A stretch of DNA of 64,000 nt from assembly GCF_013167455.1 (NCBI RefSeq), contig NZ_CP038328.1. One strand, written 5' to 3'. The position numbers are program-made. This DNA is from Escherichia coli O157:H7 (lineage in GTDB: Bacteria; Pseudomonadota; Gammaproteobacteria; Enterobacterales; Enterobacteriaceae). The stretch's first letter is position 1, and each line of letters opens with the position of its first letter. Below are positions 3,001 through 6,000 of this stretch, one piece after another.

Positions 3001-6000
3001 TTTATGCATGTTTATATTCATCATACAATTATATAACCATTTCCCGGTATCGCTTTGCTTTAGCGAGAACTGGTCTTTTATTCGCACTCAGGAGTACATG
3101 TATGAGGATTTGCAGCGACCAACCTTGTATTGTTTTATTGACTGAAAAAGATGTCTGGATAAGGGTTAATGGGAAAGAACCTATTAGCCTTAAAGCTAAC
3201 CATATGGCGTTATTAAATTGTGAAAATAATATTATCGACGTCTCCTCTCTTAACAACACTTTGGTTGCTCATATTAGTCACGACATCATCAAAGATTACC
3301 TCCGGTTTCTGAATAAAGATCTCTCGCAAATACCAGTATGGCAACGTAGCGCTACGCCCATTCTCACCCTGCCATGCCTGACACCAGACGTCTTTCGCGT
3401 TGCCGCGCAACACAGCATGATGCCCGCAGAAACTGAGTCAGAAAAGGAACGAACACGCGCATTATTATTCACGGTGCTATCCCGTTTTCTCGACAGTAAA
3501 AAATTCCTTTCATTAATGATGTATATGTTACGTAATTGTGTAAGTGACAGCGTTTATCAAATTATTGAAAGCGATATTCACAAAGACTGGAATCTTAGTA
3601 TGGTAGCCAGTTGTTTATGTCTTAGCCCAAGTCTGTTAAAGAAAAAGCTGAAAAGCGAAAACACCAGTTATAGCCAAATAATCACCACCTGCCGCATGCG
3701 TTATGCCGTAAATGAATTAATGATGGACGGTAAAAATATCTCTCAGGTATCACAGTCCTGCGGCTACAACAGTACGTCGTACTTTATTTCTGTCTTTAAA
3801 GACTTCTACGGTATGACACCGCTGCATTATGTTAGTCAGCACAGAGAACGCACTGTCGCCTGATTTTTAACCTTAACGAAGAGCTATATTAATAACGGCA
3901 TCAGCGATAACCCGGTCGATAATAATTCAACTATCGAATGCAGGCGTATGATATGACGTAATTTATTGTCACGAAGCTCGCCTTCGCAGGAGTTTAATTA
4001 TGTCTTCGGATGCTGATGCTCACAAAGTGGGCTTAATCCCCGTCACCCTGATGGTGTCGGGGAATATTATGGGGTCAGGTGTTTTTCTGTTACCTGCAAA
4101 CCTGGCCTCCACCGGCGGGATTGCCATTTATGGATGGTTGGTGACGATTATCGGTGCGCTGGGGCTCTCGATGGTATACGCCAAAATGTCGTTCCTCGAC
4201 CCAAGTCCTGGTGGTTCTTACGCTTACGCCCGCCGCTGCTTTGGCCCGTTTCTCGGTTATCAAACCAACGTCCTCTACTGGCTGGCCTGCTGGATCGGCA
4301 ATATCGCCATGGTGGTCATTGGCGTAGGATATTTAAGTTACTTCTTCCCGATTCTGAAAGATCCATTGGTATTAACCATCACCTGCGTCGTGGTGCTGTG
4401 GATCTTCGTCCTGCTGAACATTGTCGGTCCGAAAATGATCACCCGTGTGCAGGCCGTTGCCACCGTGCTGGCGCTGATCCCCATCGTCGGGATTGCCGTA
4501 TTTGGCTGGTTCTGGTTTCGTGGTGAAACCTATATGGCGGCATGGAACGTCAGCGGCCTGGGCACCTTCGGTGCAATTCAAAGTACCCTTAACGTTACGC
4601 TGTGGTCGTTCATCGGTGTGGAAAGTGCCTCCGTTGCCGCAGGTGTGGTGAAAAACCCGAAACGCAACGTCCCTATAGCCACCATTGGTGGGGTATTGAT
4701 TGCCGCCGTTTGCTATGTGCTCTCCACCACCGCGATTATGGGGATGATCCCTAATGCCGCACTGCGCGTTTCTGCCTCGCCATTCGGTGATGCCGCACGG
4801 ATGGCGTTGGGTGACACCGCCGGGGCCATCGTTTCCTTCTGCGCAGCTGCGGGTTGCTTAGGTTCACTGGGCGGCTGGACATTGCTGGCGGGTCAAACGG
4901 CGAAAGCGGCTGCCGATGACGGACTGTTCCCACCGATTTTTGCCCGTGTAAATAAAGCGGGTACGCCAGTGGCGGGGCTGATTATCGTCGGTATTTTGAT
5001 GACCATCTTCCAGCTCAGCAGCATTTCACCAAACGCGACCAAAGAATTCGGTCTGGTTTCTTCCGTGTCGGTCATCTTTACACTGGTGCCATATCTTTAC
5101 ACCTGTGCGGCGTTACTGCTGCTCGGACACGGTCACTTTGGTAAAGCACGCCCGGCATATCTGGCGGTTACTACCATTGCCTTCCTCTACTGCATCTGGG
5201 CCGTGGTGGGGTCCGGGGCGAAAGAGGTTATGTGGTCATTTGTCACCCTGATGGTCATCACCGCCATGTATGCGCTGAATTACAACCGGCTGCATAAAAA
5301 CCCGTATCCCTTAGATGCACCAATAAGCAAAGATTAATTCCCCTTAATCCAGCAAAGATAAAAGCCAACCTTAAGAACTTAAGGTTGGCTTAATTTTGCT
5401 TTGCGAGCATATGCGCACTTTGTTCGATGGAAACACCGTGATGTTGAAGCGCCTACTAAAAAGACCCTCTTTGAATTTACTCGCCTGGCTATTGTTGGCC
5501 GCTTTTTATATCTCTATCTGCCTGAATATTGCCTTTTTTAAACAGGTGTTGCAGGCGCTGCCGCTGGACTCGCTGCATAACGTACTGGTTTTCTTGTCGA
5601 TGCCGGTCGTAGCCTTCAGCGTGATTAATATTGTCCTGACACTAAGCTCTTTCTTATGGCTTAATCGACCGCTGGCCTGCCTGTTTATTCTGGTTGGCGC
5701 GGCTGCACAATATTTCATAATGACTTACGGCATCGTCATCGACCGCTCGATGATTGCCAATATTATTGATACCACTCCGGCAGAAAGCTATGCGCTGATG
5801 ACACCGCAAATGTTATTAACGCTGGGATTCAGCGGCGTGCTTGCTGCGCTGATTGCCTGCTGGATTAAAATCAAACCTGCCACCTCGCGTCTGCGCAGTG
5901 TTCTTTTCCGTGGAGCCAATATTCTGGTTTCTGTACTGCTGATTTTGCTGGTCGCCGCACTATTTTATAAAGACTACGCCTCGTTGTTCCGCAACAACAA

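What the first reader, a model, noticed from the sequence alone, without database searches (positions are those of the whole stretch)
5362..5394. One palindrome serves as probable adiC terminator and carries the eptA PmrA box
The 14-bp perfect inverted repeat aagccaaccttaag/cttaaggttggctt lies 24 nt after the adiC stop and is followed by a T-rich tract, as expected for an intrinsic terminator. Its 3' arm together with the following CTTAAT forms the PmrA box for eptA, and a third CTTAAG half-site sits in the 5' arm. Read-through from the acid-induced adi operon and PmrA-dependent initiation of eptA may therefore be coupled through one element.
Basis: partly seen in the sequence, partly recalled or inferred. 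Interest (0 to 1): 0.35.

Follow-up and report, generated by a model that had tools for sequence, protein, structure and literature searches.

The report
adiC hairpin overlapping the eptA PmrA box
In the 103-base gap between the E. coli genes adiC and eptA, a perfect 14-bp palindrome contains the known PmrA activator site of eptA and also looks like a moderate, untested transcription stop signal for adiC, which is a tidy but fairly ordinary overlap of two known signal types.

Summary
A perfect 14-bp inverted repeat (5362-5375 / 5378-5391) starts 24 nt after the adiC stop. It is the longest perfect inverted repeat in the window, and no shuffle produced one as long. Its 3' arm plus CTTAAT gives a perfect PmrA box, CTTAAG-GTTGG-CTTAAT (5378-5394).

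The box is well supported. It is conserved upstream of eptA in about 52 enterobacterial species. A conserved nAnnAT -10 lies exactly 10 nt downstream, as at arnB and pmrR.

The terminator reading is plausible but unproven:
- As RNA the repeat forms a 13-bp hairpin of about -19 kcal/mol, with tail UUAAUUUUGCUUU.
- It ranks 15th of 881 terminator-like candidates on the + strand and scores below the clear gene-end terminators.
- The distal left arm and the T-tract are conserved only where adiC lies upstream. They decay where a REP-like hairpin intervenes (Salmonella, C. freundii group).
- Covariation is uninformative, and I found no 3'-end mapping data.

The "third half-site" is conserved in its own right. 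Its TTAA core is invariant even in Klebsiella and Kluyvera, which lack both the hairpin and adiC. It therefore looks like a protein contact rather than a by-product of the hairpin.

Nothing supports regulatory coupling. Insulation of eptA from adiC is the simpler reading.

The parts
4000..5337 (+). adiC coding sequence (arginine:agmatine antiporter, 445 aa); stop codon TAA at 5335-5337
   Evidence: ORF list; RefSeq annotation of matching E. coli genomes
5362..5375 (+). 5' arm of the palindrome, AAGCCAACCTTAAG. The distal part (5362-5369) is conserved only where adiC lies upstream
5370..5375 (+). HS0, the third CTTAAG hexamer. Its TTAA core (5371-5374) is invariant in 46 unique sequences from about 52 species, including those without a hairpin
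5376..5377 (+). 2-nt spacer AA (AA, TT or AT in other species). As RNA the loop is GAAC, 5375-5378
5378..5391 (+). 3' arm of the palindrome, CTTAAGGTTGGCTT
5378..5394 (+). PmrA (BasR) box: HS1 CTTAAG 5378-5383, spacer GTTGG 5384-5388, HS2 CTTAAT 5389-5394
   Evidence: Perfect YTTAAK-N5-YTTAAK match, 2 in window against 0.05 expected; conserved upstream of eptA orthologues; consensus from PMC3973317, PMC10570014, PMC1525208
5390..5402 (+). U-rich tail of the putative terminator (UUAAUUUUGCUUU). It overlaps HS2 and the promoter spacer. The predicted adiC 3' ends are about 5396-5400 (MG1655 4335635-4335631, minus strand)
   Evidence: the 3'-end position is an inference from the usual 7-9 nt distance after the stem
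5405..5410 (+). Predicted eptA -10 element GAGCAT (nAnnAT), 10 nt after the box. The predicted transcription start is about 5417
   Evidence: The position and the nAnnAT pattern are conserved in all aligned species. The same 10-nt gap is seen at arnB and pmrR. No start-site data were found, so this is an inference
5441..7084 (+). eptA coding sequence (547 aa), followed by basR 7081-7749 and basS 7759-8850

Best explanation
The element is first of all the PmrA-dependent promoter module of eptA-basRS. It has three invariant TTAA cores: HS0, then HS1 8 bp downstream, then HS2 a further 11 bp downstream. HS1 and HS2 form the canonical PmrA box, which replaces the -35 element 10 bp upstream of a weak -10. 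HS0 and HS1 already form a short inverted repeat. In the lineage where eptA sits directly behind adiC (Escherichia and many Citrobacter), this core is extended outwards (GCCAAC/GTTGGC plus AA/TT) into a 13-14 bp hairpin. HS2 and the promoter spacer are T-rich in the same lineage. In adiC-sense RNA this gives a stem (about -15 to -19 kcal/mol, with a GC-rich base) followed by UUAAUUUU. That most likely acts as a moderately efficient, probably leaky, intrinsic terminator and 3'-end protecting hairpin for adiC mRNA. Transcripts would be released about 5396-5400, inside the eptA promoter and upstream of the eptA start (about 5417). The net effect is to insulate eptA from acid-induced adiC transcription, not to couple the two. 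Shown here: the sequence features, their statistics and their conservation pattern. Taken from the literature: that PmrA binds such boxes and activates pmrC/eptA. Inferred: termination at this site, the eptA start site, and insulation.
For: - Repeat and statistics.
- Fold: -18.8 kcal/mol with z = -4.2 for 51 nt, and -25.9 with z = -5.6 for the whole 3' UTR.
- It is the only long-stem terminator-like site between adiC and eptA.
- It ranks 15th of 881 hairpin-plus-T-tract candidates on the + strand, and it lies 26 nt after a long ORF stop.
- It is the best + strand candidate in 17 of 27 adiC-context genomes.
- The distal left arm (5362-5369) and the T-tract (5395-5402) have high information content only in the adiC context, while the flanks are randomised.
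- Every adiC-context lineage without a strong upstream hairpin (MFE of the upstream stretch 0 to -8.5 kcal/mol) keeps a palindrome of -13.5 to -20 kcal/mol. Salmonella and the C. freundii group carry an extra REP-like hairpin (-17 to -29) and have let the palindrome decay to -1.6 to -3.6.
- Mismatches are mostly G.U in the adiC sense, so the + strand folds better than the - strand.
- There is one compensatory C-G to A-U change, shared by L015, L017 and L055.
- The 39-mer 5360-5398 matches without mismatch in 5384 of 5426 complete E. coli genomes, while 5350 and 5357 are polymorphic.
- PmrA box. Box-to--10 spacing is shared with arnB and pmrR. Literature: PMC3973317, PMC10570014, PMC1525208.
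Against: - The U-tract is interrupted. The tail is AAUUUU after a 14-bp stem, or UUAAUUUU after a 12-bp stem.
- The score d = -9.5 is below the three top-scoring candidates just past long-ORF stops (+28 to +45), although it is close to two gene-end hairpins at -0.7 and -2.6.
- There is no covariation beyond shuffles, because the right arm is frozen by the PmrA box.
- The T-tract is also promoter DNA, so its conservation has a second possible cause.
- The adiC-context species form one clade, so shared ancestry inflates the context-specific conservation.
- Salmonella and the C. freundii group have no canonical terminator at this junction, so strong termination here is not essential.
- No mapped adiC 3' end was found in the supplements I could search.
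Confidence: 0.55

Rival explanations
1. The palindrome exists for protein binding, not for RNA. HS0 plus its flank (AACCTTAAG) is an inverted copy of an extended PmrA half-site (CTTAAGGTT). It would be bound by a further PmrA protomer or by a related regulator such as QseB. On this view the RNA hairpin is incidental, and adiC transcripts end by Rho or run on into eptA.
For: The HS0 TTAA core is as invariant as those of HS1 and HS2 in 46 unique sequences. That includes Klebsiella, Kluyvera and Raoultella, where the hairpin is -0.6 to -10 kcal/mol and adiC is absent. HS0 fits YTTAAK better on the bottom strand (38/46) than on the top strand (17/46). No species has a strong canonical terminator at this junction. 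QseB/PmrA redundancy at eptA is reported in PMC9882033.
Against: The outer 5-8 bp of the left arm (AAGCC...) has no PmrA rationale, yet it is conserved exactly where adiC is adjacent and no other hairpin is present. HS0 lies 8 bp from HS1, off the 11-bp register of PmrA tandem binding. arnB and pmrR carry only degenerate versions (ATTAGT, ATTGAA). Pantoea and Tatumella lack HS0 or have it shifted. No footprint data could be read.
Confidence: 0.25
2. The hairpin is mainly a barrier to 3'-to-5' exonucleases that stabilises adiC mRNA, as REP elements do, rather than the site where RNA polymerase terminates.
For: The palindrome decays in the lineages that acquired a GC-rich REP-like hairpin lacking a T-tract. 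This suggests the replaceable function is a stable 3' stem rather than hairpin-plus-U-tract termination. REP stabilisation of upstream mRNA is established knowledge from my own memory and was not checked here.
Against: The T-tract is conserved together with the arm in the adiC context. The stem has a GC-rich base directly followed by UU, as terminators do. Several lineages with a REP-like hairpin still keep the palindrome (C. gillenii group and C. sedlakii). This role is compatible with termination rather than exclusive of it.
Confidence: 0.15
3. PmrA occupancy of the box modulates termination or read-through of adiC transcripts (by roadblock or by interfering with the hairpin), or adi read-through feeds eptA-basRS expression. 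Acid-induced arginine decarboxylation and lipid A modification would then be linked through one element.
For: The physical overlap is real. The terminator looks leaky. Both systems respond to acid: PmrA/PmrB activation by mild acid is the title and abstract of PMC1804205, seen. The release site lies inside the eptA promoter (inference).
Against: There is no direct evidence. The overlap is absent in most genera that have the same promoter module, and it decays in Salmonella, where PmrA biology is best studied. A terminator in this position is more simply an insulator. No paper in the searchable library links adiC and eptA transcription.
Confidence: 0.1
4. The long palindrome is a neutral accident or a relic of a mobile or repeated element.
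For: Two independent IS1 events have breakpoints at its edges.
Against: None of 60 shuffles reached 14 bp. The element is single-copy in E. coli genomes, with a median of one place per genome. It matches without mismatch in 5384 of 5426 genomes next to polymorphic sites. It is conserved across Escherichia and Citrobacter species whose flanks have diverged. There is no Rfam family here.
Confidence: 0.03

Closest known systems
PmrA (BasR) box of the pmrCAB / eptA-basRS, pbgP (arnB) and ugd promoters
   Same: Two YTTAAK hexamers in direct repeat, 5 bp apart, replacing the -35 element. The sequence here fits the Salmonella half1 CTTAAG / half2 XTTAAT pattern (PMC3973317, PMC10570014, PMC1525208). 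It lies upstream of the PmrA-activated gene eptA, with the same 10-nt gap to the -10 as at arnB and pmrR.
   Different: The eptA version carries an additional invariant TTAA 8 bp upstream (HS0). This is only degenerate at arnB and pmrR and is not mentioned in the papers I could read. In Escherichia the first half-site and the spacer also form the 3' arm of a long hairpin.
Intrinsic (Rho-independent) terminators of E. coli
   Same: A stable stem-loop with a 4-nt loop and a GC-rich stem base, followed by a U-rich tract, 24 nt after a stop codon on the same strand.
   Different: The stem is long and AT-rich (5 GC in 13 pairs). The U-tract is interrupted by AA. The score is below the clear terminators in this window. 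No mapped 3' end was found. The 3' half is constrained by a transcription-factor site, so it cannot co-vary.
Bidirectional terminators (an A-tract, hairpin and U-tract shared by convergent genes; own knowledge, Ju et al. 2019, not read here)
   Same: In this strain the hairpin has AUAAAA upstream and UUAAUUUU downstream. It scores better on the minus strand (d = +12.9, rank 4 of 881) than on the plus strand.
   Different: The flanking genes are tandem, not convergent. The upstream A-tract is not conserved outside Escherichia.
REP/BIME-type GC-rich extragenic hairpins as mRNA 3' stabilisers (own knowledge)
   Same: Same position, in the adiC 3' UTR. In Salmonella and the C. freundii group a REP-like hairpin occupies this UTR and the palindrome has decayed.
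   Different: The palindrome is single-copy, AT-rich, and overlaps a promoter. Whether the other hairpins are true dispersed REPs was not shown.
Terminator packed against a PmrA promoter: proP 3' hairpin and the pmrR promoter in the same window
   Same: A hairpin of the upstream gene (minus strand, about 9017-8989) ends 12 nt before a perfect PmrA box (8976-8960).
   Different: There the hairpin and the box are adjacent rather than overlapping.

Membership tests
PmrA/BasR box | Two YTTAAK hexamers in direct repeat separated by 5 bp | tested here: met
   CTTAAG-GTTGG-CTTAAT at 5378-5394 with 0 mismatches. Two matches in 64 kb against 0.05 expected.
PmrA/BasR box | The box overlaps or replaces the -35 element of a promoter with a -10 a fixed distance downstream | tested here: met
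   A conserved nAnnAT hexamer (GAGCAT 5405-5410) lies exactly 10 nt after HS2 in all aligned species. The same gap occurs at arnB (TAAAAT) and pmrR (CATACT). No sigma-70 -35/-10 consensus pair is present. The start site itself was not mapped.
PmrA/BasR box | Located upstream of a PmrA-activated gene and conserved with it | tested here: met
   Found upstream of eptA orthologues in about 52 species, in two different genomic contexts. pmrC/yjdB/eptA is listed as a PmrA target in PMC1525208, PMC10570014 and PMC9396075.
PmrA/BasR box | Binding of phosphorylated PmrA/BasR to this DNA | not testable with these tools
   The primary footprinting paper (Wosten & Groisman 1999) is not held in the library.
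Intrinsic terminator | A stable stem-loop (typically 5-14 bp with a 3-8 nt loop) in the sense transcript | tested here: met
   13 bp with a GAAC loop, -18.8 kcal/mol, z = -4.2; found by the scan.
Intrinsic terminator | An uninterrupted U-rich tract directly 3' of the stem | tested here: inconclusive
   UUAAUUUUGCUUU has 6 U in the first 8 nt after GGC, with AA at positions 3-4. T-score is 2.78, against 4.9-5.3 for the three top-scoring candidates. d = -9.5, rank 15 of 881.
Intrinsic terminator | Lies shortly downstream of a gene end on the same strand, with no alternative terminator | tested here: met
   24 nt after the adiC stop. It is the only long-stem candidate before the eptA ATG.
Intrinsic terminator | Base pairing maintained in evolution (covariation) | tested here: inconclusive
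   87.9% of cells are paired, but only 1 pair shows a change on both sides, and every measure equals the shuffles. The right arm is frozen by the box.
Intrinsic terminator | Transcript 3' ends mapped 7-9 nt after the stem | not testable with these tools
   No adiC or eptA entries in the Term-seq and SMRT-Cappable-seq supplements held. Other papers have no supplements held or are not held at all.
Bidirectional terminator | Shared by convergent transcription units | tested here: not met
   adiC and eptA are both on the + strand.
REP/BIME repeated element | Many dispersed copies per genome | tested here: not met
   A median of 1 place per E. coli genome. The Rfam naRNA4/REP hits in the window lie elsewhere.

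The most novel reading that the evidence does not exclude
The invariant third TTAA (HS0, 5371-5374), 8 bp upstream of the PmrA box, is a functional and so far undescribed protein contact specific to the autoregulated eptA-basRS promoter. It could be an inverted PmrA or QseB half-site, or the landing place of an upstream-shifted PmrA DNA-binding domain. On this reading the palindrome is first a protein-binding inverted repeat. In Escherichia, occupancy of it by BasR~P would then also set where adiC transcripts end (roadblock versus hairpin termination), linking acid resistance and lipid A modification.
Probability: 0.15. Interest if true: 0.55.

Novelty: new member of a known kind. Interest (0 to 1): 0.3.

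Why it matters
eptA-basRS controls phosphoethanolamine modification of lipid A and so affects polymyxin/colistin tolerance. adiC belongs to the arginine-dependent acid-resistance system. If the hairpin is a leaky terminator, some eptA-basRS expression under acid, anaerobic conditions could come from the adi promoter without PmrA. If it is efficient, it shows how a 103-nt spacer can hold a terminator and an activator-dependent promoter by sharing bases. That sharing constrains how each signal can evolve. The more general point is that the eptA promoter carries a third invariant TTAA element in more than 50 species. Current two-half-site descriptions of the PmrA box do not include it, and it is cheap to test.

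Tried and rejected
- **3'-end or start-site data.** I looked for adiC/eptA entries in Adams 2021, Yan 2018 and TERMITe 2025 and found none. Dar & Sorek 2018 and Conway 2014 have no supplements held. Thomason 2015 and Ju 2019 are not held.
- **Primary PmrA papers.** Wosten & Groisman 1999, Marchal 2004 and Aguirre 2000 are not held.
- **Literature searches.** Searches for the exact box sequence, for adiC with eptA and terminator, and for PmrA with palindrome found nothing on this element.
- **Covariation test.** It is uninformative because the right arm is invariant.
- **Outer helix.** GCAAAG 5352-5357 / CUUUGC 5399-5404 lowers the fold to -25.9 kcal/mol, but I rejected it as selected. Position 5357 is G, C or T among E. 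coli strains.
- **REP status of the extra hairpins.** Pattern searches found these hairpins only at this junction within the fetched loci, so calling them REP remains unconfirmed.
- **Rfam.** No family at the element.
- **HS0 at other promoters.** It is only degenerate at arnB and pmrR. The pbgP oligonucleotides in PMC3973317 are too short to judge.
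Full report
**What is there**

The window is E. coli. Positions 5000-5800 are 100% identical to strain 2017C-4109 and match 5412 of 5426 complete genomes, annotated adiC and eptA. The genes run adiA (508-2778), adiY (3102-3863), adiC (4000-5337), eptA (5441-7084), basR (7081-7749) and basS, all on the + strand.

The adiC-eptA spacer is 103 nt. In it repeat finder reports arms 5362-5375 (AAGCCAACCTTAAG) and 5378-5391 (CTTAAGGTTGGCTT), 14 nt each, 100% complementary, 2 nt apart. The repeat starts 24 nt after the adiC stop.

It is the longest perfect inverted repeat (spacer up to 8) in the 64 kb. 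None of 60 dinucleotide-preserving shuffles reached 14 nt, and the mean number reaching 12 was 0.017. CTTAAG-GTTGG-CTTAAT (5378-5394) is one of only two perfect YTTAAK-N5-YTTAAK matches in the window, against 0.05 expected.

**The PmrA box**

The literature I could read gives three descriptions:
- Two hexanucleotide repeats separated by five nucleotides, overlapping the -35 element of pbgP, ugd and pmrCAB (PMC10570014).
- Verified Salmonella boxes with half1 CTTAAG and half2 XTTAAT (PMC3973317).
- Consensus CTTAA-N5-CTTAA, with yjdB (pmrC) among the defining instances (PMC1525208).

I fetched 60 eptA loci from one genome per species and anchored them on the box. The box is present at a near-constant distance from the eptA start, 61-65 nt or 77-78 nt. 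This holds in Escherichia, Citrobacter, Salmonella, Klebsiella, Raoultella, Kluyvera and others.

A hexamer of the form nAnnAT lies exactly 10 nt after HS2 in all of them (GAGCAT at 5405-5410 here). The same 10-nt gap precedes TAAAAT at K-12 arnB. It also precedes CATACT at the second box of this window, upstream of a 29-aa PmrR-like ORF. The box assignment is therefore solid. I infer an eptA start near 5417, downstream of the hairpin. No start-site data were available.

**Is the hairpin a terminator?**

- **Fold.** As RNA the repeat folds into 13 bp with a GAAC loop, at -18.8 kcal/mol (z = -4.2).
- **Pattern scan.** The scan flags it on both strands, and it is the only long-stem site between adiC and eptA.
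- **Score.** I scored every hairpin-plus-T-tract in the window with a d'Aubenton-Carafa-type function, using modern energies, so the values are relative only.
  - The three top-scoring candidates just past long-ORF stops score +28 to +45. The candidate 117 nt after the adiA stop, at 2896-2914, scores +28.
  - Two other gene-end hairpins score -0.7 and -2.6.
  - The palindrome scores -9.5 on the + strand (rank 15 of 881) and +12.9 on the - strand (rank 4).
- **Weak point.** The + strand tail is UUAAUUUUGCUUU, interrupted by AA. The stem base GGC is favourable.

It is a plausible terminator, but probably a leaky one. The better minus-strand tail depends on an upstream A-tract that is not conserved outside Escherichia.

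**Comparative evidence**

adiC lies directly upstream of eptA only in Escherichia, Salmonella and most Citrobacter. Klebsiella, Kluyvera and Raoultella have a ybhK-like gene there instead.

Per-column information content gives a clean split:
- The three TTAA cores (HS0 5371-74, HS1 5379-82, HS2 5390-93) are invariant in both contexts.
- The distal left arm (5362-69) and the T-tract after HS2 (5395-5402) are conserved only in the adiC context.
- The positions just upstream are randomised there, which shows that divergence is sufficient.

The hairpin energies follow the same pattern:
- Every adiC-context lineage without a strong upstream hairpin (MFE of the upstream stretch 0 to -8.5 kcal/mol) keeps a palindrome of -13.5 to -20 kcal/mol.
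- Salmonella and the C. freundii group carry an extra GC-rich REP-like hairpin (-17 to -29 kcal/mol) between adiC and the box. Their palindrome has decayed to -1.6 to -3.6 kcal/mol.
- Three further lineages with such a hairpin keep the palindrome partly or fully. With about eight independent lineages, the association is suggestive and not significant.

Other observations on pairing:
- Left-arm changes opposite right-arm G are often C-to-U, so pairing survives only in the adiC-sense RNA.
- One compensatory C-G to A-U change exists, shared by L015, L017 and L055.
- The formal covariation test equals its shuffles, because the right arm is frozen by the box. It neither supports nor refutes the structure.

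In 17 of 27 adiC-context genomes the palindrome is the best + strand terminator candidate in the spacer. No species has a strong canonical terminator at this junction.

Within E. coli the 39-mer 5360-5398 matches without mismatch in 5384 of 5426 genomes, while 5350 and 5357 are polymorphic. That polymorphism also removes the outer helix seen.

**The third half-site**

In E. coli the CTTAAG in the 5' arm is automatic, because CTTAAG is self-complementary. Its TTAA core is nonetheless invariant in 46 unique sequences. That includes about 23 with no usable hairpin and no adiC upstream. The 2-nt spacer varies (AA, TT, AT).

HS0 fits YTTAAK better on the bottom strand (38/46) than on the top strand (17/46). 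Orientation is ambiguous, however, because HS2 is CTTAAA in the same Klebsiella-clade species. At arnB and pmrR the equivalent hexamers are only ATTAGT and ATTGAA. Pantoea and Tatumella lack HS0 or have it shifted.

HS0 therefore looks like a constrained protein contact that travels with eptA, independent of any terminator. The Escherichia hairpin looks like an outward extension of this built-in inverted repeat. I found no description of HS0 in the papers I could read.

**Mechanism and verdict**

The best-supported reading is one stretch of DNA serving two functions.
- The DNA is the PmrA-dependent eptA promoter.
- Its adiC-sense transcript forms a hairpin plus U-rich tail that ends or protects adiC mRNA about 5396-5400, inside the promoter spacer and upstream of the eptA start.

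This arrangement insulates eptA from adiC. Nothing supports it, though, and the overlap is absent or decayed in most genera that have the same promoter.

I found no experimental 3'-end data and no paper discussing this element. Its components are known kinds of signal. The overlap is a compact arrangement of modest interest. The conserved HS0 is the most testable new detail.

Noticed in passing
window 8826-8984 (- strand): A second perfect PmrA box, CTTAAGGTTCACTTAAT (8976-8960), lies 10 nt upstream of a -10-like CATACT. A 29-aa ORF (8915-8826, MKNRVYESLTTVFSVLVVSSFLYIWFATF) follows it and runs antisense into the last 25 nt of basS. From memory this looks like pmrR. The whole region is covered by the Rfam hit STnc630 (8819-8984, 178 bits), so that 'sRNA' family appears to include a promoter and a small protein gene.
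   Followed up: partly
window 8989-9017 (- strand): The hairpin GGCCTGAT...ATCAGGCC after proP ends 12 nt before the pmrR PmrA box. This is a second case in the window of an upstream gene's 3' hairpin packed against a PmrA promoter, but adjacent rather than overlapping.
   Followed up: no
L002 (E. coli GN04171) and L065 (E. coli 1506), breakpoints at window 5366 and 5399: Two independent IS1 insertions with adjacent deletions have breakpoints at the two edges of the palindrome. One removes eptA-basRS and everything up to alsA. The other removes the eptA promoter -10 and the N-terminus of eptA.
   Followed up: partly
window 5000-5800 versus 5338-5440: The 801-bp stretch, mostly coding sequence (about 340 nt of adiC and 360 nt of eptA), is 90-95% identical in 982 E. 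coli genomes. The 103-nt intergenic region is at least 99% identical in 4334 genomes and never below 90%. The promoter/hairpin region is more conserved than the flanking coding sequence.
   Followed up: partly
window 5326-5337 and 5351-5362: There is a 12-nt direct repeat, AGCAAAGATTAA / AGCAAAGATAAA. The first copy is the last codons and stop of adiC. The second abuts the palindrome. It is less similar in K-12 and other Escherichia, so it may be chance.
   Followed up: no
window 2896-2914 (+): A terminator-like hairpin, GCGCGGCCCCACCCCGCGC, with a T-rich tail lies 117 nt after the adiA stop (d = +28, rank 3 in the window). It was used as one of three internal calibration points for the terminator score (ranks 1-3).
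   Followed up: no
window 5486-5501 (+): A weak terminator-like hairpin, TGGCTATTGTTGGCCG followed by CTTTTTATAT, lies 45 nt inside the eptA coding sequence.
   Followed up: no
window 14651-14827, 17304-17384, 46364-46434, 56956-57027; 43841-43895: Rfam reports naRNA4 (REP-derived) hits at five places and a SECIS_2 element at 43841-43895 on the + strand.
   Followed up: no
L027 3930-3990: A genome labelled Chryseobacterium sp. 18061 carries an enterobacterial eptA locus (72% identity to the query, with ybhK- and moaA-like genes upstream). It has a fully compensated palindrome, GACAACCTTAA/TTAAGGTTGTC, and a fourth TTAA further upstream. The label is probably a mislabelled or contaminated assembly.
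   Followed up: no
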